DNA of 64,000 nt from contig NC_083286.1 of assembly GCF_963506605.1 (NCBI RefSeq), positions 27,218,001-27,282,000 of the forward strand. The letters run 5' to 3'. Origin of the DNA: Zootoca vivipara (taxonomy: Eukaryota). This document shows positions 13,939 through 46,873 of this stretch, one piece after another; within the stretch, counting starts at the first letter, position 1; every line of letters begins with the position of its first letter. The notes below the pieces were generated by a model. It saw only the letters and a program-made list of their open reading frames with translations. It did no database searches and was not told the DNA's origin. A program made the translations under genes and the position numbers.

Positions 13939-16900
13939 ACCAAAATTGTTCTTATTTGGGTAAGATTTCGACTTTCTTAAGGTAGACTTTTTTCTTTAAT
14001 GGCACACGTGACTGTGATTGTTATCCACACTGGTGACCTCTTGGATTTGGTTGTACAACTATCTTTGATATATCAAAGAGCCAAATGTGCATTTTTTTAA
14101 CTGGATTGTTTTTGTTTTTATAGGTCCCTGGTTTGATATGTATCTTTCTGCAAGAGATCCAGTTGTTTTAAACTACAACCCTTTCATTACTTTAAATCCT
14201 GATCCAAAACCAGAATACAACAAGCAAATAGTGAGAGCAACAAATCTGGTTGTATCATCGTTAAAATTTCTTAACAGCCTGAAGAATAACTATTTGCGGC
14301 CAGATATATATTATGTCAATCGCAAATGGGGTCAGAGTAAAGTATTCAAACATTTTATCCGTATTCTTCCACCTAGTATATCCTGGTATGGAGCGTATTT
14401 GGTGAATGCATATCCTTTAGACATGTCACAATATAAGTCACTCTTCAACAGCACTAGAATTCCTAATTTAAGTAAAGATGTATTGTTCACAAGTGAATTT
14501 GCAAGACATTTGTTGGTGATGAGAAATGGACATCTCTATGTTTTTGAAGTATTGGATGCTTTTGGTAACATTCTACACCCATCTGAAATCCTGGCTCATT
14601 TAACACAAATAATACATGATGCCGATCGTTTGCCTCCGTTTGAACTTTGCTACCTGACAACTGAAGATAGAAATACCTGGGCAACACTAAGACAGGAACT
14701 TGTTCAAAAAGGTAACGAAGAAAACCTCAAGAAACTTGACAGTGCTGTATTTTGTCTTTGCTTAGATAGAGCTTCCCCCAAAAATGAAGTTGAACTCACT
14801 CATTGTTTTCTTCATGGATATGGTTTCAATCGCTGGTTTGACAAATCTTTTAGTCTGATTGTCACTAGTGATGGTACCGCAGGAATAAATTTTGAACACT
14901 CTTGGGGAGATGGAATTGCAATTCTGCGTTTTGTTAATGAAGTCTATAGAGACAGCACAGAGCACCCGGCTCTTGTACCACAAGCCAGTCCAGCTCTATT
15001 TGTTACATCATGTGACAAGCTTGAATTTAATATGGATCACACAATAAAATCTGCTATAAGTGCTGCACTTCAGAAATTTGATAAAAAAAGGGGAATGCTC
15101 TGTGTTAGAACACTTAAGTATAAAAAGTTTGGAAAACAATATTTAATAAATCAAAATTTGAGCCCTGATGCTGTGTTTCAGCTTGCATGTCAGATGGCTG
15201 TCTATCACCAGTATGGAAAACTTCTTCCTTCTTACGAAGCATGTAGTACTGCAGCTTTTAAGCACGGTCGCACTGAAACAATTCGACCAACATCTGTGTA
15301 CACAAAAAAATGTACAGCTGCATTTATTGATCAACGAGGGAAGCATAGCGCTGAAGAAATAAGAAACATGATTGATGAATGTTCGAAGTATCATAAACGC
15401 TTGCAGCTGGAAGCTACATTAGGTTAGGCCTTTTCAACATTTTCTCATACTATTGGGTTTCTGTTGTTTGACTTGTCTTACAGAAAGGGTAATGTTTCCT
15501 AGGAGTTTTCACATGGAGATACATTCATTCTGGCTTTTCTTCATTTAACTAAAGACCTTGCTGAGAGATACAGAATGCAGTAATATTTTTCATACTTTAT
15601 TTCATTTATATATCCATCCCCCTTCCTCTGAGGAGCTCAAGGCATTATCTGTCATTCTCCAATGCCCATTTTATCCTCACAACAACCCTGTGAGGTAAGT
15701 TAGGCTGACAGATTGACAGCACAATCCTATCCATGTCTGCTCAAGATTAAATAAAATAAATACTCTATGAAACAGGAATGTTCTAAAATTCGGCATACTG
15801 TATTTCTTAACAGTCATAGACATTCAGATGCCATGCTAAATAGTGTCTTAGGATGGCATTTATGTGCCTACCTTCCTTCCAGGTTTACATGCTTTCCCCT
15901 CCTATTTCCTCCTGTAGCCTGGAGGACCTTAGAAGCCTTAAATTTGCCTTTTTGCATCTAAACCACAGACCATAGTTTACCATTAAATGTACCAACTTGA
16001 AAACATATGGTAGATTATGAAGCTGGTTTGTTGAGACTAATTAGTGCTAAACCACACAATGAAAAGTTGTATCTAAGAGAAAACAATGAACGCTTTTAAA
16101 TTCCTCCGCTCAGTTGTGGGAGAATTACAGAACTGTAGAGTTGAAAGGGACCCTGAGGGTTATTTAGTCCAACCCCCTGCAATGAAGGACTATGCAGCTG
16201 TCCCATACGGGGATCATACCTGCAACCTTGGCTTTATCAGCACCACGCTCTTAACCAACTGAAAGGAGATATAGACAGAAGATCAGGAGGAAGGTAGGCA
16301 CATGCAGGTCATGCTAAACCAAATGTGGCCATACACCCCCTAGTAAGATGAAATATGGTTATGCTTAGTGGGGAGACATTTCAGTGTATCGTTGGGGATA
16401 CTCATGGGTGTCTAGCTGTCTGGCATCATTAGACAAAGTTGCAGGTCATTCCAGGATAACAGGAAAATATAAAAATTAGGAACGGCATCAAGTCAATGAT
16501 AGAAGAAGCCGCTTAAAGCTATTTAAAAGCTATCACTTAATGGAGGTGTTTTCACAAAACAATGCATAAATAGTGTTTTCTATTTCATATAACTAGAATG
16601 GAAAAGTTTATTTACTAAGTATATAATCAGAATGTTCTAGCTCACTTTCTGTACATTAGGTTGTATCCAGAGCAGACCTAATGAAATTAGTGAACTTAGC
16701 TAACTTTCCTTTTCACCTGAGCTTTTGGTCATTCATGTGTGGGTTTCAAGTATTTGTGGCCTCTTTTAGTAGGCAGGATCTGTAAGCCCTGTTGTTGTTT
16801 TAATACTTACTCTATGTATTTGCCCTTTTTTTAAATCCAGGCCAAGGATTTGATCGCCATTTATTTGCCTTGAAGTACCTCGTCCAGCGCAGAGGTGGAC

Positions 16901-17169
16901 GTATGCCTGATATTTATAATGACCCAGCCTACAAAAACATAAACCATGTTATAATTTCAACTAGTACATTAGGCAGTGAAGCAATTAATCATGGTGCGTT
17001 TGGACCAGTTGTGCCAGATGGTTTCGGAGTTGGATATAACATGTTTGATGATTGGGTAGGAAGTATTACAACTAGCTATTTAGAAAAAGACTTAGAAGAA
17101 CTTATGAGATACATCGAATATACATTGAATGATATATATGATGTCTTAGAAGGAAGAAGACTTAAATAG
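7809..17169 (+). CDS. Carnitine O-palmitoyltransferase 2-like (CPT2 paralog), 664 aa. Exons: 7809-7987, 10133-10213, 12591-12697, 14124-15422, 16841-17169.
   Basis: Five GT-AG exons (179/81/107/1299/329 nt) join in frame with no internal stop. Motifs: Arg-rich N-terminal presequence, [35 protein letters not shown]2-specific insert ...[26 protein letters not shown], catalytic [53 protein letters not shown] at 17266. Confidence 0.95.
8179..8559. mobile_element. Tc1/mariner-type MITE with ~60-bp TIRs and TA flanks, interrupted centrally by (TTA)n and an AT-rich retroelement-like 3' end
   Basis: Left caggtgaaactcggaaaattagaatatc...gcaactt is the reverse complement of right aagttgc...gatattctaattttccgagtttcacctg; TA on both sides. 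Confidence 0.8.
10535..11085 (+). mobile_element. L2 LINE 3' fragment
   Basis: Degenerate [34 protein letters not shown] coding remnants, followed by a 3' UTR and (AAT)n tail. Confidence 0.75.
13352..13885 (-). mobile_element. CR1-like LINE 3' fragment (degenerate)
   Basis: ataagaagagc..ggatcagaccaa... resembles the reverse-complemented squamate CR1 3' end; a similar decayed piece lies at ~53260-53600. Confidence 0.5.
13906..13937. repeat. (GT)n microsatellite
   Basis: Direct reading. Confidence 0.95.
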
Positions 17170-21391: not shown

Positions 21392-24300
21392 ATGTCTCTC
21401 AGGCCAATTGGCTGGATATGTGGAGAGCTGGTCAGGAAATTTGCTGGACAAGGTATGAGCTACTCTGTGTGTGAGTTCTCAAATCCTGGATTCAGAAAAC
21501 ACTGCCTTCTCTATACCTTTGTACTTGATTTTTTAAAAAAATCTGTTTCTACCAGATAGGCCAGGGGTAGGGAACCTCATTCCTGGGGGCCAAATATAGC
21601 CCCAATGCCTCTCTGGGCTGTGGAATTTTCCCCATGCCACACCCCTTCTGCACCAGCCATGGCCCTCGCTAGCCCTATTCCATACATACATGTTTTTGCC
21701 TAGCTAGAATGCCTTTGGTCCCACCTACCACTAGCACATGGTCCTTGAAACGTTGGCCATGTTGGTTTATGGCCCAATAGAATAGAATTTTGCTAATTTA
21801 GATCAGCCAGCAATTGGCTGGACAGCAAGCATAGTTCTTCGTTCTGATGCTGCAGACTTGCTCCAACCTAAATATTTCATGTTTGAACAATGCTTACACG
21901 ATAAGTATAATTTTGAGAACAGGGGCTTTATTATTTTTAACTACTGTTTTTCAATTCAGCCCAGATAATACAGAGAGTCTTCTTGGAAATTATAGATGAG
22001 ATTAGGGATGAATTCCCCAATTTACTGAGACTGACAAGCTCCAACCAGGTAATGTTTCTGAACTAATACTAATACTATTTCACTATTATTTGAAAGTTAA
22101 GTTTCTTTATACAATAGTCTGTTAAAGATTGCATTTATTGCAAACTCAGCAAAGTTTCAGCTAAATGTTTTACTTATACCACAAAGTTATACACAAAGTT
22201 AGAAAAATAATTAATATATTCAGGGGAGACAAGTTTTGGCATAGCATACCTCCAGAAACCTGCTCCACATATTTTTTTTCTTTTTAGTATCATTTTCATC
22301 CAATGATGATAAAAACAATGTTATTACTAAATCCCCAAAATAAGCACACCCATGTGTGCATCTATTGAGTTTTGGCTAATTTATCCAAGTAAGCAGGGTT
22401 AAACTGATGTTTCTAAAGCAGTCTAAAGATCTATGGCATACAATGTTCTTTAGTAAGGAGCCCAAGGGTAGTAATGCTACCGTAATTCCCCCCCCCCTTA
22501 CTGGTGTTTCTGTGAATAATTGTCTAAAATACATGTCAACTTGGTGCATTTGCTGGAATGTTGGACTAGGAAGGACCAGGGTTCAAATTCCCACTCAGCC
22601 ATGAAGTCCCTGGATGACAGCCCTGTCACTGTCTCTCAGCCTAACCTCCCCCACAAGGTTGTGGGGAGGGAGAGATCCATTTATGCCATCTTGAGCTCCT
22701 TGGATTAAAAGTGAGATATTAATATAATAAATGAATGAATGCCAGGGCAAAGATGCTTGCAGATCTCATCATATATTCATTGTCCCCCCAATGGCAAACT
22801 ATACTACATCAGCAATAGGGCCCAGTGTGGGAATGTTGAGGATAGTAGGAGATAATGTTGTTGTTGTTTAGTCGTTTAGTCGTGTCCGACTCTTCGTGAC
22901 CCCATGGACCACAGCACGCCAGGCACTCCTGTCTTGCACTGCCTCCCGCAGTTTGGTCAAACTCATGTTCGTAGCTTCGAGAACACTGTCCAACCATCTC
23001 GTCCTCTGTCGTCCCCTTCTCCTAGTGCCCTCCATCTTTCCCAACATCAGGGTCTTTTCCAAGGATTCTTCTCTTCTCATGAGGTGGCCAAAGTATTGGA
23101 GCCTCAGCTTCACGATCTGTCCTTCCAGGGAGCACTCAGGGCTGATTTCCTTAAGAATGGATAGGTTTGATCTTCTAGCAGTCCATGGGACTCTCAAGAG
23201 TCTCCTCCAGCACCATAATTCAAAGGCATCAATTCTTCGACGATCAGCCTTCTTTATGGTCCAGCTCTCACTTCCATACATCACTACTGGGAAAACCATA
23301 GCTTTAACTATACGGACCTTTGTCGGCAAAGTGATGTCTCTGCTTTTTAAGATGCTGTCTAGGTTTGTCATTGCTTTTCTCCCAAGAAGCAGGCGTCTTT
23401 TAATTTCGTGACTGCTGTCACCATCTGCAGTGATCAAGGAGCCCAAGAAAGTAAAATCTCTCACTGCCTCCATTTCTTCCCCTTCTATTTGCCAGGAGGT
23501 GATGGGACCAGTGGCCATGATCTTGGTTTTTTTGATGTTGAGCTTCAGACCATATTTTGCGCTCTCCTCTTTCACCCTCATTAAAAGGTTCTTTAATTCC
23601 TCCTCACTTTCTGCCATCAAGGTTGTGTCATCTGCATATCTGAGGTTGTTGATATTTCTTCCGGCAATCTTAATTCCGGCTTGGGATTCATCTAGTCCAG
23701 CCTTTCGCATGATGAATTCTGCATATAAGTTAAATAAGCAGGGAGACAATATACAACCTTGTCGTACTCCTTTCCCAATTTTGAACCACTCAGTTGTTCC
23801 ATATCCAGTTCTAACTGTAGCTTCTTGTCCCACATAGAGATTTCTCAGGAGACAGATGAGGTGATCAGGCACTCCCATTTCTTTAAGAACTTGCCATAGT
23901 TTGCTGTGGTCGACACAGTCAAAGGCTTTTGCATAGTCAATGAAGCAGAAGTAGACGTTTTTCTGGAACTCTCTAGCTTTCTCCATAATCCAGCGCATGT
24001 TTGCTATTTGGTCTCTGGTTCCTCTGCCCTTTCGAAATCCAGCTTGCACTTCTGGGAGTTCTCGGTCCACATACTGCCTAAGCCTGCCTTGTAGAATTTT
24101 AAGCATAACCTTGCTAGCGTGTGAAATGAGCGCAATTGTGCGGTAGTTGGAGCATTCTTTGGCACTGCCCTTCTTTGGAATTGGGATGTAGACTGATCTT
24201 CTCCAATCCTCTGGCCATTGCTGAGTTTTCCAAACTTGCTGGCATATTGGGTGTAGCACCTTAACAGCATCATCTTTTAAAATTTTAAATAGTTCAGCTG

Positions 24301-27300
24301 GAATATCATCACTTCCACTGGCTTTGTTATTAGCAGTGCTTTCTAAGGCCCATTTGACTTCACTCTCCAAGATGTCTGGCTCAAGGTCAGCAACCACACT
24401 ACCTGGGGTGTACGAGACCTCCATATCTTTCTGGTATAATTCCTCTGTGTATTCCTGCCACCTCTTCTTGATGTCTTCTGCTTCTGTTAGGTCCTTACCA
24501 CTTTTGTCCTTGATTATGGTAATCTTTGTACGAAATGTTCCTTTCATATCTCCAGGAGATAATATATTGATTAAATATTACCCTTCCTCACTCATGCTAG
24601 TGAGCTAGTAGCAGAGGACATTCCCTCCCTTGTACATTGCAGGAAGCTAGTTGATGGATTTGTGAGAATCATTTGAGTTAAGCAATCCAATCTGACTTGT
24701 CCAGATTGGATTGTTCCTGGTAAATCCCCTTTAGTTCCCTCTTAAAAAGAATAATGACACAACAGTCTTCCTTTTAAAAGTACGGTAATGGTAATGTTTA
24801 CTACATTCAGTTCACTGTATGGTCCTGGAGGCAGGCTTTATCTTGTAGTTACAGATACAGAGAAAAATGTGGGTTCATCCTCTGTGAGGGATGAGCCCAT
24901 GTGCTGCTGGCTGAGAGCCTGCGGACAGCAAATGGCAAAATGGTATAAGGTGGAAAAGGGAAGATGGCTGCTTGACCAGCCCTTTTGTAGGGTCTGCTAG
25001 GGCCATGTCCATATACCTGGTCACACACAGGGGGAGGATGCTCCAGACCAGGTGTGACAGTAAGTCCTCCTGGCTGGAGCAACATTCCCCTGGGTGCCCA
25101 CTCTGGACAAACAGGAAATGTTGTATTTGACTGCTTCAGTGATGTCACATCCCACACCCAGAGGCATTGGAAATAAGGAAGATGCCACCAGTTGCAGCTA
25201 TCTCACTTCACACTTGGCTGTGGCGTACCAAGTGTCTGAGCTGTACAGTTTCCAGTGGGATCACCACCTACTACCACTCATTTCCTCCGTTCCCCTGGTA
25301 AGGGAATTTCGATGGGAGGAGCATGTTTTGGAAGCTAAGCCTGCTGAAATTCATCTAGACAACTGTTGAAGGTACAGGAGCCTTGTCCTCTTTCACATCT
25401 GACCACATCACTTTCCCTTTTTCCCATACACATAATGCATACTTAAAAGTGGAATGTGGAATTTTCATGTGATCCCGAATGCTCTACCCAAAGGTCTTAA
25501 TAATGCATCAAACTGCCTTTCTCTGTTCTAGACCTCTCCCTCCCCAAGTACCGTAATTTTACTATTTTTTTCTCCCTCCTTGTATTGACTTATATTTCAG
25601 GACAGCAATCGCACCGTGCAGGAGTCTAGGTCTGTTGTGGCAAGAGTGTTCTATTCCGCTCATGCGGTAATGATTAGGAATGGGCTAACTCACCTCTCCC
25701 GCTCTTCAAAATCAATTGCTAAATTCGTGCAGCCACACCTCCTCCGAAAATTGACAGACCTGCAAAGGGTATCACACCGTCTCTTGCAGAAACTGAATGC
25801 TCCCAAACAACCTCTTTATAAATTGAAGGTAGGCAATGAGTGTGACTCCCCCATCTCATATTTTCTAAGTGAGTTCTAAGTGAATGTATGAGCGATTTTC
25901 CTCAGCACCACAACAGAGGATGAGAAGGTAAAATTTCCTCCTCCATGCCATCTTGAGATTCTCATAATTATAAGCCGCATCAGCTGATGCTATTTGCCCT
26001 AAAAATGTTAGGTGCAAATACCTTTTTTTTTAACATTCACATAGCTTGATCTTCCTTGTGCAGACAAGGATTCAGTATAAGATTCAGTATGGCAGCTTCC
26101 AATGTTCCTGTGATAGCATATTACAGCACAAACAAAAAGGAATCTTGTGGCAGACTAATAGAAATATTGTGGTATAGGCTTGTGGATTAGAGACTAGTGT
26201 TTTGTGCATATTTGCTAGAAACTAAGTCCCACTAAGTTTAAAGGGTTTACTCCCATGTCAATATGCGTAGGCTTGTAGCCTTATGTTCTATTGATATCAA
26301 TGGAAACTATTTCCATGAAATATGTTTAGGATTTACATAATCTACAACAGGGTGGTACCTGTCAATTTGTGGACCTGATCATTCCCAAGTCTTCCCCCCC
26401 CCCAAAAAAAATTTGTCTGGGGCAGCAGCGTGTGTGTGCGCACAGAGAGTTAACGAACCACATCAGGGGCTCTGCATGGAAATATTTAGGAACTGTCTAG
26501 CATGTGGACATTAGATTGTTATCCATGTTGAGCTTTATGTCCCATTGATTTAAATAAGGAAGATATAAGCAAGTTCTTAACTCTCCCATTCAAACCAATG
26601 GAACTTAAAAGTGAATGGATCATGGATACCAAACTGCAATATGGCAGAAGAATGAATCCCTTGACTGTGAATCCCAGCGTGGAGTAGTGGTTAAGAGCGG
26701 TGGACTCGTAATCTGGTGAACCGTGTTCGCTTCCCTGCTCCTCCACATGCAGCTGCTGGGTGACCTTGGGCTAGTCACTCTTTTCTGAAGTCTCTTAGCC
26801 TCACTCACCTCACAGAGTGTTTGTTTAATGTTTTTTTAAATAATTAAAACCCCATCTTTATTTAACTTCTTTAAAATATAACAAACACAAACAGAAAAAG
26901 AAATTTAAAACATAAACAAAAAATAGAAATTCAATCCCTCCTTCCTAAAAAAAGGATACAACATAATATAACATACATAAAAAATATACAGATTGTAAAA
27001 GAATTAAAGAGAGCAATAAAGAAACAAAAGGAAAAAATTATTTAAAACTTAAAAACGACTTCCAATTGTTTGTGTATCACTTCCTTCACCAATTTCCATT
27101 CGCTCGCTTTCCTTAATTTACTCATACTACAACCCTAAGGGGTTTTGGCTTACACCACCTTTCAAATACATCACTCTATGTGTATCTTAATTTAGGCAGA
27201 TCACCAATTTTGTTTCAATACCCTCTTTGTTCAAATAATCCTCCACATATTTCCACTCATTTTTTTATTTTTTGTTTGGGAACATTTCTTATAGTAGCCA

Positions 27301-28698: not shown

Positions 28699-30703
28699 TA
28701 ATGCTCCCTTGTATGGTATACATAGCTGTAATTTTTCTGCTTGTGCACTGTTTTATTTCAATACACAAATATGTGAAGATAGTCTTCATTTTCCATTACT
28801 CAAGCAAATGCAATTTACACACACACACACACACACACTACAGATGAACGCAGGTTCCACACTGTAAATAGTTTGGTATGTTCCTTCTCTAGTAGAAATA
28901 AACCAAATAACGGCTTGTCCATGTGTATGCTCAGTACCACATTTCATGCAATAGTTTCAGAATGTCTTAATCCTCAAAACACTGAATACCATTTTGATAG
29001 AATCAACAGGCATGTTTTTAAATAGATATTACAAAAACAGGTCAATGGACTTATGCAAGAAAAACAAACATTTCCAAAGTCTCATTTTTTCACCATACAT
29101 AATTTGCCAGTATCTAATTATTAAGGTAGTAAAAGTAATATTAAAAAGTTGAAGAATGACTAACATTTTAATTACTAGTTGATAATTGCAAGGCTATTTT
29201 GGAATTTTTGACAGCAAAATAGCTGCCTATGTATGTATATATGTCACAATTCCTATTATTTTCCTAAGCACACTCATAGCTTCTTTTGACTGATCCTGTC
29301 CAAAAGGCATTTAGTTTTACAGTATTTTGTCTTTTAACTCGCTCTTCCAGTATGTATGCAATACAGTACAGAGCTTTCCTTTGGGCTTGGTTTAAAAACA
29401 AAGTTCAATCGTACACTAGAAAATGGTTTCAGAACTCTGAACTCCAGAGAAGCGTCATCAAATTAAGGGCAGTGCAGGAATTTGGTTATTTTCTTTTCCT
29501 TCTCAATTGTCCTTGTCAGTCAGCTAGCCACATACTGTACAGGAAGGGCAAATTGCTCCCAGCAGCTCCACCTACACAGCAGTGAGTGCCAGGCTTATCC
29601 AAAGCTACTGTGTAAAAGGGGCTTTGTTGCTCACAAACTCTTTCCTGTGCAGAGTTTCTCGCTACTGGAAGAAAAGGGCTCTGTTTGCAGCTAGGAGAGA
29701 AAGGGCAGATTTCTTTACTTAGCAAAAACCCCAGACCTGATTAAATGTTACAGATATGTGTGGCTGCTGCTGCTGCTGCTGCAAAGTTTATCCTTTGTGG
29801 TGAGATAACTTTTGAAAGCTTTTACAGCATCTCTGCATCAGTTCCAGCACCTACCAGGGATTTGCAGTGGTAGTGTGGGGTTGGCAAACACAGTAGGATG
29901 GGTTTTTAAATACTACATCAGCCACATAGAAGGGCGCCACATGGTATTGCTTTACATTTTGATAGGGGTGCCAGGGGTGCCAACTTGAATAAAATATTGC
30001 GGGGGCTCAGATAAGACCCTCCCTACATAATCAATCACATGGTGTGGTGCATGCACACCATTTGAATGGCAATGTCCATCAACCTGGGGGGTGGCGGTCC
30101 CCTCAAATATTTTATTGGGGAGGCGAAGGGGCCCTAGCCCCTAGGAGTTGACTCCTTTGCCATCATCAATTGCCAGAGTTTCCAAGGACCAGGAGAAAGC
30201 AATCTAAAGACCTGCCAACCACTGGTTGGCAAGGGAGAAAATGCATTACGTGGCACATAAGAAACTACAATATGCTCCCTGAATTGCTTTTAGCCTTTCC
30301 TTCTGTATTTTCAGCGAAAGTTTCATAAGTATTTCAATAGACTTTTGTGATGCATTGCATATCTAGAAACGAAACTGACAAAGTAAGAGTTAAATACTTA
30401 ACATTCCTCAGAGCATGGCTGTACCTAGGTAATATGCATAACTGAGTAATTGCACATCTATTAAGACAAGAATAAGCATGAAAAAATGCCAGTGTGTCAA
30501 ATCCTTGAGCATCATTTCGTGAAAATGAAACCATTATCTGAGAAGGATTATGTGTCTCTGTGTTAAAGATGAGTGATAGACTTCTCTAAGTCATGGTCCT
30601 CCATCCTTTGGCAAGTATTTTCTCCCTTTTCTGGAGTCCACTCTACCAATTTGGACCACCCAGGTGTTTATCACTGCATTAGCTTACTGTATCTCTCTCA
30701 CTC

Positions 30704-33700
30704 CCCTTCATGGATCAATGCCTTGTCGTGGCGAAGGGGCTTGAATAACTCAGAGAAGCTATGAGCTATGCCATGCAGGACCACCCAAGATGGACAGGTC
30801 ATAGTGGAGAGTTTTGACTAAACGTGATCCACCTGGAGAAGGAACTGGCAAGCCACTCCAGTAACCCTGCCAAGAAAACTCCATGGACAAAGACAACAGG
30901 CATATAAAAGTTATGACGCTGGAAGATGAGCCCCTCAGGTCGGAAGGCGTCCAACATGCTACTGAGGAAGAGCGGAGGACAAGTACAAGTAGATTCAGAG
31001 CTGATGAAGCGGCTGGGCCAAAGCCGAAAGGACGCTCAGTTGCGGATATGCCTGGAAGCGAAAGGAAAGTCCGATGCTGTAAAGAAAAATATTGCATAGG
31101 AACCTGGAATGTAAGAACCATGAATGGAGGTAAGCTGGATGTGGTCAAAAATGAGATGACAAGAATAAATATCGACATCCTGGGCATCAGTGAACTAAAA
31201 TGGAAGGGAATGGGCGAATTCAGTTCGGATGACTATCATATCTACTACTGTGGGCAAGAATCCCGTAGTAGAAATGGAGTGGCCCTCATAGTCAACAAAA
31301 GAGTGGCAAAAGCTGTAATGGGATGCAATCTCAAAAATGACAGAATGATCTCGATACGAATCCAAGGCAGACCTTTTAACATCACAGTAATCCAAGTTTA
31401 TGCACCAACTACCGGTGCTGAAGAAAGTGAAATTGACCAATTCTATGAAGACCTACAACACCTTCTAGAAATGACACCAAAGAAGGATGTTCTTCTCATT
31501 ACAGGGGATTGGAATGCTAAAGTAGGGAATCAAGAGATAAAAGGAACAACTGGCAAGTTTGGCCTGGGAGTTCAAAATGAAGCAGGGCAAAGGCTAATAG
31601 AGTTCTGTCAAGAGAACAAGCTGGTCATCACAAACACTCTCTTCCAACAACACAAGAGACGACTCTACACATGGATATCACCAAATGGGCAGCATCGAAA
31701 TCAGATTGATTATATTCTCTGCAGCCAAAGATGGAGAAGCTCTATACAGTCAGCAAAAACAAGACCTGGAGCTGACTGTAACTCAGATCATCAGCTTCTT
31801 ATAGCAAAATTCCAGCTTAAACTGAAGAAAGTAGGAAAAACCACTGGGCCAGTAAGATACAATCTGAATCAAATCCCTTATGAATACACAGTGGAAGTGA
31901 GGAACAGGTTTAAGGATTTAGATTTGGTGGACAGAGTGCCTGAAGAACTATGGATGGAGGCTCGTAACATTATACAGGAGGCAGCAACGAAAACCATCCC
32001 AAGGAAAAGGAAATGCAAGAAAGCAAAATGGCTGTCCAACGAGGCCTTACAAATAGCGGAGGAGAGGAGGCAAGCAAAATGCAAGGGAGATAGGGAAAGA
32101 TACAGGAAACTGAATGCAGATTTCCAAAAAACAGCAAGGAGAGACAAGAGGGTCTTCTTAAATGAGCAATGCAAAGAAATAGAGGAAAACAATAGAATGG
32201 GGAAAACCAGAGATCTGTTCAAGAAAATTGGAGATATGAAAGGAACATTTCGTACAAAGATTACCATAATCAAGGACAAAAGTGGAATGGACCTAACAGA
32301 AGCAGAAGACATCAAGAAGAGGTGGCAAGAATACACAGAGGAATTATACCAGAAAGATATGGAGGTCTCGTACACCCCAGGTAGTGTGGTTGCTGACCTT
32401 GAGCCAGCCATCTTGGAGAGTGAAGTCAAATGGGCCTTAGAAAGCACTGCTAATAACAAGGCCAGTGGAAGTGATGATATTCCAGCTGAACTATTTAAAA
32501 TTTTAAAAGATGATGCTGTTAAGGTGCTACACCCAATATGTCAGCAAGTTTGGAAAACTCAGCAATGGCCAGAGGATTGGAGAAGATCAGTCTACATCCC
32601 AATTCCAAAGAAGGGCAGTGCCAAAGAATGCTCCAACTACCGCACAATTGCGCTCATTTCACACGCTAGCAAGGTTATGCTTAAAATTCTACAAGGCAGG
32701 CTTAGGCAGTATGTGGACCGAGAACTCCCAGAAGTGCAAGCTGGATTTCGAAAGGGCAGAGGAACCAGAGACCAAATAGCAAACATGCGCTGGATTATGG
32801 AGAAAGCTAGAGAGTTCCAGAAAAACGTCTACTTCTGCTTCATTGACTATGCAAAAGCCTTTGACTGTGTCGACCACAGCAAACTATGGCAAGTTCTTAA
32901 AGAAATGGGAGTGCCTGATCACCTCATCTGTCTCCTGAGAAATCTCTATGTGGGACAAGAAGCTACAGTTAGAACTGGATATGGAACAACTGAGTGGTTC
33001 AAAATTGGGAAAGGAGTACGACAAGGTTGTATATTGTCTCCCTGCTTATTTAACTTATATGCAGAATTCATCATGCGAAAGGCTGGACTAGATGAATCCC
33101 AAGACGGAATTAAGATTGCCGGAAGAAATATCAACAACCTCAGATATGCAGATGACACAACCTTGATGGCAGAAAGCGAGGAGGAATTAAAGAACCTTTT
33201 AATGAGGGTGAAAGAGGAGAGCGCAAAATATGGTCTGAAGCTCAACATCAAAAAAACCAAGATCATGGCCACTGGTCCCATCACCTCCTGGCAAATAGAA
33301 GGGGAAGAAATGGAGGCAGTGAGAGATTTTACTTTCTTGGGCTCCTTGATCACTGCAGATGGTGACAGCAGTCACGAAATTAAAAGACGCCTGCTTCTTG
33401 GGAGAAAAGCAATGACAAACCTAGACAGCATCTTAAAAAGCAGAGACATCACCTTGCCGACAAAGGTCCGTATAGTTAAAGCTATGGTTTTCCCAGTAGT
33501 GATGTATGGAAGTGAGAGCTGGACCATAAAGAAGGCTGATCGCCGAAGAATTGATGCTTTTGAATTATGGTGCTGGAGGAGACTCTTGAGAGTCCCATGG
33601 ACTGCAAGAAGATCAAACCTATCCATTCTTAAGGAAATCAGCCCTGAGTGCTCACTGGAAGGACAGATCGTGAAGCTGAGGCTCCAATACTTTGGCCACC

Positions 33701-33932
33701 TCATGAGAAGAGAAGAATCCTTGGAAAAGACCCTGATGTTGGGAAAGATTGAGGGCACTAGGAGAAGGGGACGACAGAGGACAAGATGGTTGGACAGTGT
33801 TCTCGAAGCTACGAACATGAGTTTGACCAAATTGCGGGAGGCAGTGCAAGACAGGAGTGCCTGGCGTGCTATGGTCCATGGGGTCATGAAGAGTCGGACA
33901 CGACTAAACGACTAAACAACAACAACAACAAC
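30704..33932 (+). mobile_element. Full-length RTE-BovB LINE (~3.2 kb)
   Basis: 13-bp TSD atctctctcactc (30691-30703 and 33933-33945); typical BovB 5' end; (CAA)n tail; intact ORF. Confidence 0.98.
30883..33915 (+). CDS. BovB ORF: APE-like endonuclease plus reverse transcriptase, 1010 aa, uninterrupted
   Basis: EN motifs GTWNVR, LGISE, YAPT, GDWNA, IDYI, SDH; RT motifs QAGFR, DYAKAFD, GVRQG, YADD, FLG. Confidence 0.95.
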   Translation: MDKDNRHIKVMTLEDEPLRSEGVQHATEEERRTSTSRFRADEAAGPKPKGRSVADMPGSERKVRCCKEKYCIGTWNVRTMNGGKLDVVKNEMTRINIDILGISELKWKGMGEFSSDDYHIYYCGQESRSRNGVALIVNKRVAKAVMGCNLKNDRMISIRIQGRPFNITVIQVYAPTTGAEESEIDQFYEDLQHLLEMTPKKDVLLITGDWNAKVGNQEIKGTTGKFGLGVQNEAGQRLIEFCQENKLVITNTLFQQHKRRLYTWISPNGQHRNQIDYILCSQRWRSSIQSAKTRPGADCNSDHQLLIAKFQLKLKKVGKTTGPVRYNLNQIPYEYTVEVRNRFKDLDLVDRVPEELWMEARNIIQEAATKTIPRKRKCKKAKWLSNEALQIAEERRQAKCKGDRERYRKLNADFQKTARRDKRVFLNEQCKEIEENNRMGKTRDLFKKIGDMKGTFRTKITIIKDKSGMDLTEAEDIKKRWQEYTEELYQKDMEVSYTPGSVVADLEPAILESEVKWALESTANNKASGSDDIPAELFKILKDDAVKVLHPICQQVWKTQQWPEDWRRSVYIPIPKKGSAKECSNYRTIALISHASKVMLKILQGRLRQYVDRELPEVQAGFRKGRGTRDQIANMRWIMEKAREFQKNVYFCFIDYAKAFDCVDHSKLWQVLKEMGVPDHLICLLRNLYVGQEATVRTGYGTTEWFKIGKGVRQGCILSPCLFNLYAEFIMRKAGLDESQDGIKIAGRNINNLRYADDTTLMAESEEELKNLLMRVKEESAKYGLKLNIKKTKIMATGPITSWQIEGEEMEAVRDFTFLGSLITADGDSSHEIKRRLLLGRKAMTNLDSILKSRDITLPTKVRIVKAMVFPVVMYGSESWTIKKADRRRIDAFELWCWRRLLRVPWTARRSNLSILKEISPECSLEGQIVKLRLQYFGHLMRREESLEKTLMLGKIEGTRRRGRQRTRWLDSVLEATNMSLTKLREAVQDRSAWRAMVHGVMKSRTRLND

Positions 33933-34731
33933 ATCTCTCTCACTCATATGTATACACACACACCACACCACACCACACCCCTACCCTCTCTCCCTACAGC
34001 CACATAGAGGCATACCTAGTATTCAGCCACAACACACACCGATTGCACTCTTCTCCTTGCCTGTTAAGAGAGGCATGGCAAACTACCAAGGAGTTCAGCT
34101 TTTCCAGGATATACCTTCAGCACAGTCAATTTGGCCCCAAAGCAGCCTGTCACTTCCAGATGATACAAGGCTGAGCTGGCTTCTAGCCAAGTTGCATTAG
34201 GCAGAAGCTGGGCGCCCTCCTGTCACCCTCCTGCCTCACTTACAGGCAGATCTATGCACTGCTAAATAACTACACAGCTGGAACAGCCTTCAGGAATTCT
34301 TGCACAAACCAATACGAACTTTGGCTATCATTTTGAGAAGGACTGGATTAAGGGCGAGACAAAGAATAAAAGACTCCCAACAATAACAAATCATATTAGC
34401 ACACAAGCACAACATCTCCAATTATATTGATAACATTTGTCCATCATGATAGTTTTAAAACATCATTTTATATTTTGGAAGCGAGAGACACTTGAAGGCT
34501 GGATCAACATAAATCTAACATTTTGATTACTGGCAAAATTAATCTATTATAAGCATACTATACTATATTCTTCTCAAAGGCACAAATACTTCTCTGATCG
34601 ACTCCCTTTTTAGAGAGAGACTGGAGCTCAGTTTCATACCATCACTCAGAAGCTGAATGCTCTTTAGACAGCAAGGATACCATTCACATTCATTGTTATT
34701 TTAAAGCCATTTCTATGAAGCACAGAAGATG

Positions 34732-36842
<2,111 letters not shown>

Positions 36843-45437: not shown

Positions 45438-45523
45438 GCTGCCGAGGGCACCCTTGCACAATCCTCGCTGCTCCTTTCCCAGAGTAAAGTTCACCCCCAG
45501 TTGGGCGGGCGACGTCGGAAGGC

Positions 45524-46873
45524 ATGGAGGACTCGTTCAACCCGGACACCCTTGCCGTCGGACCCAACTTATCCGGCATCGCGATTCCCGGGTGGAACTT
45601 GAACTTTTCGTCCCACGGGGCTACTCTGGGGCAGCCTAGTGCGCGGACCCTGTCGGCGGGCGCGATCCTGCTGCTGGCGCTGGTGGGCAACGGCTTGCTC
45701 TTGCACAGGCTGCGCTGCGGAGGGTGCTGCTGCGGGTCCCGCTTCGGACGGCGGCGCAAGATGGATTTCCTGCTGGCGCACTTGGCCATCGCCGACCTCT
45801 ACGGATGCGGGCTGGTGCTGCTCTCCCAGCTTCCACCTGCCGATGTGGAGCCGGGGCAAACGGCGTGGCCTGCAGGGGACGCCACTTGCCGCCTCCTGTG
45901 GCTCCTGCAAGGCTCTGGGCTGCTGGCGCCCTCGCACATGCTCGTCCTGATCGCGATCGAGCGACACCACATGGTGAGGGGCCCCGCGCACCCGCCGCTC
46001 TCTTTCCTGCCCGCCCGAGGCGCTTTGGCTGCGCTAGGCTGGCTGCTGGCGCTGCTGCTCGCCTTGCCGCAAGCCTTCGTTTATCGGCTGGCGCCTCTCG
46101 AGTCCGGGGGTCGTTGCCTCAGCATCTTCGCACAGCGGCCCCGCTGGCACGGCCAGACCTACGCCGTGTACTGGGCAGTCGCGGGCTTCGTGGCGCCCGC
46201 CTGCCTCCTGGGCGGGACCTGCGGCCGCATCCTCAGCGCGCTCGGCGGCGCACCCGGCGCCAAGAACGACGACGACGCCGAGCCGTCGCGGGGGGCAGCG
46301 GGCAGCGCCCGCCATTACGGCGCGGAGCTTCCCGGCGCCTCTGCCGCTCCTCGCCCGCCTCCGCCGCTCTTGCTGCGGCTCCTGCCCCTCGCCAAGTGCG
46401 CGCTGCCCTCGCCGCCTGCGCCGCGGAGCCTGCCCCGCGCGCGGGCCCGGGCGCTGCAGCTGACGCTGGCGCTGGCCATGCTGTTCGTGCTCTGCGGCTT
46501 CCCGCGCTTTCTCCTAGAGCTCGCCTTGGCCTTCGCCTCCTCGGAGAGCAGCGGCGGCGCCACCGACGAAGCGCGGGCGGCCCTGGGGAGCATCATGGCG
46601 GCCACCAACAGCGCCCTCAACCCCTACGTGTGCCTCTTGTTCCACAGCCACGGCCCGTGGGCGCGGCGCCTCCAGCGCAGCCTGTGCCGCTGCCCCGACG
46701 GGCAGCCCCGACGGCGCGCTCGACACCGGCATCGCCCGCCGCCGCAAGCGGCTGCCGAGCGCCCTGGACGCTGGCTGTGCCCTTGCCAGACCAAGCCGCC
46801 CACCGTCTCCACGGTCGTCCACCTCGAGGAGGGTGAGACGCCGCTCTCTGCCGCTTGCGAAAGCGGCTTCTAA
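45524..46873 (+). CDS. GPR150: Orphan class A GPCR GPR150 (vasopressin/oxytocin-receptor-related), intronless, 449 aa
   Basis: Starts MEDSFNP...GWNLN; contains RRKMDFLLAHLAIADLY, LVLIAIERH, LPARGALAALGWLLALLLALP, AVAGFVAP, NSALNP and C-terminal CESGF, matching recalled GPR150. Seven hydrophobic segments, lies in a CpG island, and sits between RFESD and ARSK. Confidence 0.95.
   Translation: MEDSFNPDTLAVGPNLSGIAIPGWNLNFSSHGATLGQPSARTLSAGAILLLALVGNGLLLHRLRCGGCCCGSRFGRRRKMDFLLAHLAIADLYGCGLVLLSQLPPADVEPGQTAWPAGDATCRLLWLLQGSGLLAPSHMLVLIAIERHHMVRGPAHPPLSFLPARGALAALGWLLALLLALPQAFVYRLAPLESGGRCLSIFAQRPRWHGQTYAVYWAVAGFVAPACLLGGTCGRILSALGGAPGAKNDDDAEPSRGAAGSARHYGAELPGASAAPRPPPPLLLRLLPLAKCALPSPPAPRSLPRARARALQLTLALAMLFVLCGFPRFLLELALAFASSESSGGATDEARAALGSIMAATNSALNPYVCLLFHSHGPWARRLQRSLCRCPDGQPRRRARHRHRPPPQAAAERPGRWLCPCQTKPPTVSTVVHLEEGETPLSAACESGF

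What the first reader, a model, noticed from the sequence alone, without database searches (positions are those of the whole stretch)
30703..30831. Predicted HDV-like double-pseudoknot ribozyme beginning at the 5' end of the full-length BovB
Seen, in HDV order: P1 CCCCUUC (30703-30709), P2 UGGAUCA (30711-30717), P3 GCC (30720-30722), L3 UUGUCGU, P3' GGC, P1' GAAGGGG (30733-30739). An extended P4 follows (AACUC/GAGUU and CUAUGA/UCAUAG stems), then J4/2 CUAA (30818-30821) and P2' UGAUCCA (30825-30831). P1 starts within 1 nt of the TSD-defined 5' boundary. L3 keeps the U...CG pattern, and a single swapped G-C P1.1 pair is possible. Knowledge: HDV-like ribozymes process the 5' ends of R2, L1Tc and some RTE retrotransposons. 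Inference: BovB may cut itself out of host read-through transcripts, a promoter-independent strategy that would suit its repeated horizontal transfer. Caveats: position 1 is C-G rather than the canonical G-U/G-C, and the P2/P3 junction has mismatches in this copy.
Basis: partly seen in the sequence, partly recalled or inferred. Interest (0 to 1): 0.7.

Follow-up and report, generated by a model that had tools for sequence, protein, structure and literature searches.

The report
Self-cutting RNA heads lizard BovB retrotransposon
A young, intact BovB jumping gene begins exactly at the first base of an RNA fold of the hepatitis-delta ribozyme type that relatives keep through compensating changes, so the element likely cuts its own RNA out of host transcripts, a strategy known for related elements but untested for BovB.

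Summary
Observation confirmed; interpretation mostly supported. Window 30703-33932 is an intact BovB/RTE LINE (1010-aa APE+RT frame, 12-bp TSD). Its first 129 nt have every HDV-like element at the stated coordinates. Of 30 genomic copies picked without regard to their start, 25 begin exactly at C30703 and none extends further. There is no excess of G before the start (354 of 1900), so no sign of a cap. Across 23 related families, P1, P2, P3 and the one-pair P1.1 covary, and C30818 is invariant in a C-N-A-A linker. An older subfamily (at least 223 copies) lost 47 nt of P4, kept the core and rebuilt a hairpin. C1-G is no defect: active trypanosomatid ribozymes also start with C. Cleavage itself is untested, RNA-seq was inconclusive, and a co-located promoter is not excluded. 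The link to horizontal transfer is speculation. HDV-like heads are known for RTE elements (Ruminski 2011, not readable here); I found no BovB report in the searchable library. This scan noted the same fold before on other DNA (e1-9393647, e1-9885827). New member of a known kind.

The parts
30691..30702 (+). 5' target-site duplication (12 bp), abutting ribozyme nucleotide 1
30703..33932 (+). Full-length young BovB (RTE-clade) LINE, 3230 bp
30703..30831 (+). Predicted HDV-like ribozyme, 129 nt; predicted cut between U30702 and C30703
30703..30709 (+). P1 5' strand, pairs with 30733-30739; first pair C-G
30711..30719 (+). P2 5' strand: 7 bp with 30825-30831, A30718.G30824 mismatch, U30719-A30822
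30720..30732 (+). P3 (3 bp) closing the 7-nt L3; G30725 pairs with C30740 (one-pair P1.1)
30733..30741 (+). P1 3' strand and J1.1/4 (C30740, U30741)
30742..30817 (+). Extended, branched P4 domain; 30764-30810 is deleted in an older subfamily that keeps the core
30818..30821 (+). J4/2 C-N-A-A; C30818 is the predicted catalytic cytosine
   Evidence: invariant C116, A118, A119 in alignment A2
30822..30831 (+). P2 3' strand with bulged C30823
30835..30890 (+). Conserved 5'-UTR segment just after the ribozyme, homologous to the first 56 nt of Bov-A2
   Evidence: by eye against supplement passages of PMC5786205
30883..33915 (+). Single intact ORF from the first ATG (1010 aa): APE endonuclease and reverse transcriptase
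33917..33932 (+). (CAA)n tail
33933..33944 (+). 3' target-site duplication

Best explanation
The first 129 nt of this intact BovB LINE are predicted to fold as an HDV-like double-pseudoknot ribozyme that likely cleaves the RNA just before C30703, which would release a unit-length, uncapped element RNA from longer transcripts. Shown: the helices, their covariation, the coincidence of nucleotide 1 with the insertion boundary, no extra G at junctions, and host-flank read-through RNA for the family. Inferred from the family: Mg2+-dependent cleavage with C30818 as general acid-base and a 5'-OH product. Inferred: the product is translated from ATG 30883, reverse-transcribed from the (CAA)n tail and copied to its last base, so each new copy regenerates a complete ribozyme. 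The core is of the L1Tc type (C1-G, one-pair P1.1). The large P4 extension is likely dispensable for cutting and may serve another step. Whether the source transcripts come only from host read-through or also from an internal promoter is open.
For: Boundary: 25 of 30 copies found with a downstream-only query start at C1, base -1 is mixed (G8 T9 A7 C6), 5 are 3-17 nt short, none is longer. 1900 of 2708 genomic matches to nt 7-20 also carry nt 1-6 exactly. 15 of 17 copies with a TSD have no extra base before C1 and none has an extra G; G at -1 in 354 of 1900 against 21% G in the window. Covariation: P1.1 is G-C in 64, A-U in 24, other in 2 of 90 metagenome matches (by family 20, 2, 1 of 23). P1 fully paired in 17 of 23 families; own partner beats shuffled partners in 100000 of 100000 permutations. 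P2: 14 of 23 own against 21 of 506 cross pairings; of 19 helices found without asking for the motif, 14 are preceded by C-N-A-A against 7% background. On a sequence-only alignment of 15 rows all 9 P2 pairs show two-sided changes, 92.8% of cells paired against 67.6% shuffled, 0 of 500; P1 pairs 5 and 6 change on both sides. Natural deletion: at least 223 copies lack 47 nt of P4, keep core, C-N-A-A and P2, and carry two C>T changes that form a 7-bp hairpin absent without them. Elephant RTE1-N1_LA keeps the fold with different P1, P2 and P3 sequences (read by eye, supplement of PMC5786205). Precedent: RTE elements with HDV-like heads (PMC6765202, PMC5786205, PMC3774820); cleavage mapped at C1 (PMC4035085); one-pair P1.1 active (PMC3185411).
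Against: No cleavage was measured. RNA-seq of the same species label (3 runs, 1 study, about 6% read) shows no pile-up of molecule ends at 30703 and many reads that run across the junction into host flanks (142 listed at 30702-30709 in X21); strand was not calibrated and many such reads come from truncated copies, so it neither supports nor refutes. Rfam finds no ribozyme. Folding z-score 0.13; without flank the nested model prefers an alternative to P1/P3 (P1 probability 0.15; 0.99 with 60 nt of flank). The young subfamily carries an A.G mismatch in P2 near P3. The search pattern fixed most of L3, two P3 pairs and the GGGG of P1', so those positions are not independent evidence; the 15 rows were chosen by me among good folders, and 9 of 23 families lacked a 6-bp P2 after C-N-A-A. 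Only 2 of 90 outside loci showed reverse transcriptase downstream within the short flanks, so most are not proven RTEs. Families are related, so counts are not independent events. The cattle consensus extends about 636 nt further 5'.
Confidence: 0.82

Rival explanations
1. The fold is real but an internal Pol II promoter sets the 5' end; the ribozyme is secondary or works alongside it, as for L1Tc Pr77.
For: L1Tc's first 77 nt are both promoter and ribozyme (PMC3185411). A sharp start alone cannot tell the two apart. RNA reads crossing the junction are abundant.
Against: No extra G at 17 TSD-resolved junctions and no G excess at -1 among 1900 heads; a cap-derived G is expected from recalled knowledge of capped retroelement RNAs. 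Conservation is of pairing, not of sequence.
Confidence: 0.1
2. The young subfamily's head is a weakened or dead relic: the fold is inherited and now serves as a protective or protein-binding 5' structure where reverse transcription ends.
For: A.G mismatch in P2 fixed in the young subfamily; uncleaved junction reads; some well-folded trypanosomatid candidates were inactive (PMC4035085).
Against: The subfamily with the mismatch made 1900 exact heads; catalytic C, L3 and P1.1 are intact; changes between subfamilies near the active site fall on the N of C-N-A-A and on the bulge. A dead head would let copies pick up host flank, and none of 30 does.
Confidence: 0.06
3. The helices are a chance arrangement in a conserved 5' UTR.
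For: z = 0.13; no Rfam match.
Against: Two-sided changes in P1, P1.1, P2 and P3 with controls; a deletion subfamily that spares exactly the core.
Confidence: 0.02

Closest known systems
[quoted passage not shown] 2011; not held, known here only through passages of PMC6765202, PMC5786205 and PMC3774820)
   Same: HDV topology at nucleotide 1 of an RTE-clade LINE; proposed release from host co-transcripts.
   Different: I found no report for BovB or a squamate; this head starts with C-G and has a G(L3)-C one-pair P1.1 and a branched P4. I could not see that paper's tables, which may list BovB-like elements.
L1TcRz / Pr77 ribozymes of trypanosomatid L1Tc, NARTc, SIDER (PMC3185411: passages, section 12, first part of discussion; PMC4035085: passages)
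   Same: Cleavage at C1 of an APE-type LINE with 12-bp TSDs; 3-bp P3; one-pair P1.1; missed by strict HDV descriptors.
   Different: 77 nt with short P4 against 129 nt with a 76-nt branched P4; different LINE clade and host; Pr77 is also a proven promoter, untested here.
HDV genomic and CPEB3 ribozymes (recalled, no call)
   Same: P1 7 bp, P3 3 bp, 7-nt L3 ending in CGU/CGC, C-N-A-A linker; CPEB3 also has a one-pair P1.1.
   Different: They start with G1 in a G.U pair and have C(L3)-G in P1.1; both are reversed here.
R2 ribozymes (PMC3774820, passages)
   Same: 5' processing of a non-LTR element from a co-transcript.
   Different: R2 is rDNA-specific; R2s that cleave at their exact end have variable junctions, whereas 15 of 17 BovB junctions here are clean.

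Membership tests
HDV-like ribozyme | Nested double pseudoknot order P1, P2, P3, L3, P3', P1', P4, J4/2, P2' | tested here: met
HDV-like ribozyme | 7-bp P1 beginning at the RNA's first nucleotide | tested here: met
   7 of 7 pairs; 17 of 23 families; 25 of 30 copies start there
HDV-like ribozyme | 3-bp P3 with 7-8-nt L3 | tested here: met
   first pair G-C 4, A-U 16, unpaired 3 of 23 families; the other two pairs were fixed by the pattern
HDV-like ribozyme | P1.1 pseudoknot of 1-2 bp | tested here: met
   G-C 64, A-U 24, other 2 of 90
HDV-like ribozyme | Covarying P2 preceded by J4/2 with conserved C (C-N-A-A) | tested here: met
HDV-like ribozyme | Mg2+-dependent self-cleavage 5' of nucleotide 1, lost on C-to-U change | not testable with these tools
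   needs an in vitro assay; RNA-seq inconclusive
HDV/CPEB3 subtype (G1.U, C-G P1.1) | G at position 1 in a G.U or G-C pair | tested here: not met
   C1-G in 17 of 17 fully paired families; no Rfam match. Not filed under this subtype.
L1Tc-type (Pr77) ribozyme | C1 start and single-pair P1.1 at nucleotide 1 of a LINE | tested here: met
   against PMC4035085 and PMC3185411
L1Tc-type (Pr77) ribozyme | Same DNA acts as internal promoter | not testable with these tools
   absence of a cap-type G argues weakly against
L1Tc-type (Pr77) ribozyme | Pr77 sequence homology, ingi clade | not tested
   no Pr77 sequence was fetched; the host element is RTE clade, so the likeness is structural
BovB (RTE clade LINE) | Single ORF with APE endonuclease and RT, about 3.2 kb, microsatellite tail, 7-15-bp TSD | tested here: met
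   TSD range from PMC6007223 passages
BovB (RTE clade LINE) | High identity between squamate and ruminant copies | tested here: met
   92-99% to lacertid-labelled and 75-80% to Bos-labelled proteins; 5' UTR matches Repbase BovB_VA by eye. No tree was built.

The most novel reading that the evidence does not exclude
BovB has no promoter at all: a C1-type HDV-like ribozyme, invisible to Rfam and to G1-based descriptors, is its only device for making unit-length RNA, heads most animal RTE families, and lets the element be expressed in any new host, which helps explain why RTEs are transferred between species so often; the branched P4 is a separable second module.
Probability: 0.25. Interest if true: 0.72.

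Novelty: new member of a known kind. Interest (0 to 1): 0.47.

Why it matters
BovB is the standard example of a horizontally transferred LINE (recalled), and how it is transcribed in new hosts is not settled. A defined cut site, a one-base control and a young family with many intact copies (14 of 21 examined have a frame of 1013 aa or more) make that question directly testable. About 1900 exact heads could also cut host pre-mRNAs wherever they lie in sense orientation. RTE elements are being used as gene-writing tools (PMC13708176, passages, which mention ribozymes only for R2), so knowing that their 5' UTR is a ribozyme bears on template design. A specialist would find the result plausible rather than startling, as RTE ribozymes are already known.

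Tried and rejected
Rfam scan at E up to 10: two chance snoRNA hits, no ribozyme. Single-strand folding: no excess stability. The first genome search gave T at -1 in 29 of 30 copies, an artefact of a query that included the flank; repeated with a downstream-only query. An alternative register with a G1-C30740 pair and a 4-bp P3 was rejected, because copies have no fixed G at -1 and C30740 covaries with L3 position 3. Ruminant heads: a pattern scan of prokaryote assemblies for contaminating BovB found 0; a protein scan found 6 loci, and the only one with enough upstream DNA (L202) is truncated before the 5' UTR. RNA-seq could not decide cleavage. Linking metagenome loci to RT genes mostly failed for lack of flank. 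Alignment A1 had two mis-cut rows (L099, L111) and one misaligned row (L150) and was not counted; one row of A3 (L111) lacked the P1 5' strand. The gene that might read through this copy was not identified; reads cover 30660-30695 at depth 0 in all three runs. Literature: no paper holds BovB with 'HDV-like ribozyme' or HDV, ribozyme, RTE and Bos taurus; listings for BovB or Bov-B with ribozyme, RTE with ribozyme terms and the core motif showed no such report. Ruminski 2011 and Webb 2009 are not held.
Full report
The element. Window 30703-33932 (+) is a 3230-bp LINE with one open frame (30865-33915 stop to stop, first ATG 30883) holding APE endonuclease and reverse transcriptase domains, a (CAA)n tail, and a 12-bp TSD at 30691-30702 and 33933-33944. 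Its protein is 92-99% identical to lacertid-labelled and 75-80% identical to Bos-labelled proteins among the 120 listed hits, which fits BovB; I built no tree. The family is young: the 40 scored of 328 candidates are 98-100% identical over the head, and 14 of 21 copies examined keep a frame of 1013 aa or more.

The observation. Folding energy does not single it out (z 0.13) and Rfam has no matching ribozyme; neither test sees this pseudoknot well, so I tested the boundary and the covariation.

Boundary. A query that included the flank biased the sample. With a query that starts 42 nt downstream, I read 30 of the 40 scored copies (167 candidates; the window's own copy is one of them): 25 start exactly at the C30703 equivalent, 5 are 3-17 nt short, none is longer, and the base before is G8 T9 A7 C6. 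Genome-wide, 2708 sites match nt 7-20 and 1900 match nt 1-20. I fetched 20 full copies chosen for intact heads and added the window's: a TSD was found in 17 of 21, 15 with no base between TSD and C1, one with an extra C, one doubtful, none with an extra G. G precedes 354 of the 1900 heads (18.6%) against 21% G in the window. That capped RNAs tend to leave an extra G is recalled knowledge; its absence fits an uncapped end.

Covariation. The pattern fixed most of L3, two P3 pairs and the GGGG of P1', but not the P1 5' strand, P2, J4/2 or the coupling at P1.1. P1.1 reads G-C in 64, A-U in 24, G.U in 1 and A.C in 1. 65 of 91 matches, the window's included, had enough flank and fell into 23 families; I took the best-scoring member of each. 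P1 is fully paired in 17 of 23, with C-G at position 1 in all 17 and C-G/U-A exchange at positions 5 and 6; no permutation of partners in 100000 reached the observed score. A P2 helix of 6 or more Watson-Crick pairs follows C-N-A-A in 14 of 23 families, in 21 of 506 cross-family pairings and in 129 of 6900 shuffles; when the best helix is sought with no motif required, 14 of 19 strong helices sit right after C-N-A-A, against 7% background. On a sequence-only alignment of 15 rows that I chose among good folders, C116 (C30818), A118 and A119 are invariant, all 9 P2 pairs change on both sides, and 92.8% of cells pair against 67.6% in shuffles and 31-45% in slid controls; P1 behaves likewise on 12 rows, one of them lacking P1. 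Families are related and nine lack a clear P2, some being old or internally deleted copies. Only L128 and L177 showed RT downstream in the 400-nt flanks, so the others are RTE-like by their shared head, not by proof. The long P4 also has a covarying, branched consensus in 12 rows, of which BovB lacks one arm.

Natural experiments. An older subfamily has C-G in place of the A30718.G30824 mismatch (323 exact heads). In 20 such copies the recurrent changes in J4/2 and P2' are at the N of C-N-A-A and at the bulged C30823. At least 223 copies lack element nt 62-108 inside P4 yet keep P1, P3, P1.1, C-N-A-A and P2; two C>T changes give them a 7-bp hairpin (-4 to -5 kcal/mol) that does not form without the changes (-0.2). 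12 of 20 of these start at C1, and 4 run into the ORF to the end of the fetched DNA. In the supplement of PMC5786205 (passages, read by eye), elephant RTE1-N1_LA shows the same fold with different P1, P2 and P3 letters, whereas the tRNA-headed horse SINEs SINE2-1_EC and ERE4B, which carry this region internally, have lost a U of L3, probably one event, in line with Kojima's suggestion that an active ribozyme would cut off a SINE's head. Snake consensuses BovB_VA and BovB_ACo place the catalytic C within 2 nt of ours; the sheep and cattle consensuses extend about 29 and 636 nt further 5', so ruminants remain untested.

Expression. Three RNA runs with the same species label (one study, about 6% of each read) cover the element in both orientations. 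Reads run from 30702-30709 into varied host flanks, and no pile-up of ends appears at 30703. This shows that the family is co-transcribed with host sequence. It does not decide cleavage: strand was not calibrated, part of the crossing reads come from truncated copies, and such libraries do not mark 5'-OH ends. This copy's own upstream flank (30660-30695) has no reads. It lies about 800 bp beyond the stop codon of a Rieske-domain exon on the opposite strand.

Mechanism. Most likely the head folds as it is transcribed and cuts between U30702 and C30703, using C30818, to give a 5'-OH RNA that is translated and then copied to its end by target-primed reverse transcription, so that each full copy regenerates the ribozyme (0.82). 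The chemistry is inferred from the family. Rivals are a promoter-defined start with a secondary ribozyme (0.10), a weakened relic (0.06) and chance (0.02). By analogy with L1Tc, where a G at -1 extends P1 and disturbs the single P1.1 pair (PMC3185411), copies with G at -1 should cut less well; this copy has U there.

Comparison and novelty. HDV-like heads are known for RTE, Baggins, R2, R4 and L1Tc (PMC6765202 passages; PMC5786205 parts 1-3 of 5; PMC3774820 passages). Trypanosomatid ribozymes were mapped to cleave at C1, and that paper notes that earlier descriptors were too strict (PMC4035085 passages), so the C-G start is not a defect. This is not a member of the G1 HDV/CPEB3 subtype but works like the L1Tc type. 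Ten searches of the held library showed no report for BovB, but Ruminski 2011 and Webb 2009 are not held and may list it. Earlier notes of this scan describe the same fold on other DNA; they are unchecked leads, not support. The link to horizontal transfer is untested, and R2, which also has such a ribozyme, is described as vertically inherited. Verdict: real feature, new member of a known kind, interest 0.47.

Noticed in passing
G000, e.g. L228, L235, L244; corresponds to window 30764-30810: Older BovB subfamily (at least 223 copies) with a 47-nt deletion inside P4 and a rebuilt 7-bp hairpin, giving an 82-nt predicted ribozyme; some copies continue into the ORF.
   Followed up: yes
L200:3450-3540 (IMG/VR contig, minus strand): The same C1-type core with 7-bp P1, G-C P1.1 and a P2 partner only about 10 nt downstream, i.e. 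almost no P4, on a 112-kb viral contig with no RT match in 3.5 kb of flank.
   Followed up: no
L107, L158, L171, L094, L121, L137 (metagenome loci): Heads of this type directly follow short tandem repeats resembling telomeric arrays; L107 has a minimal hairpin P4.
   Followed up: no
L002, L061, L229 and paired hits 23-27 bp apart: Tandem duplications of the first 20-25 nt of the element at the 5' junction, as expected from template jumps at the RNA's end.
   Followed up: no
L081, L190, L196, L217, L233, L242: Internally deleted BovB copies that join the head to 3' parts of the element, possible seeds of two-part non-autonomous families.
   Followed up: partly
window 30835-30890: Bov-A2 begins with the segment just downstream of the ribozyme, so these SINEs exclude the catalytic fold.
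   Followed up: partly
window 22868-24577 (-): A second, 5'-truncated BovB-type RT fragment on the opposite strand.
   Followed up: no
window 14069-15427 and 16804-17169 (+); 34732-35001 (-); 45488-46873 (+): Host exons: carnitine acyltransferase family, Rieske-type ferredoxin last exon convergent with the BovB, and a rhodopsin-family receptor.
   Followed up: no
L201-L206; several hits: BovB-like contigs about 80% identical to this protein sit in bacterial assemblies, evidently animal DNA contamination.
   Followed up: no
window 30780: This copy has A where nearly all others have G, breaking one pair of a small hairpin inside P4.
   Followed up: partly
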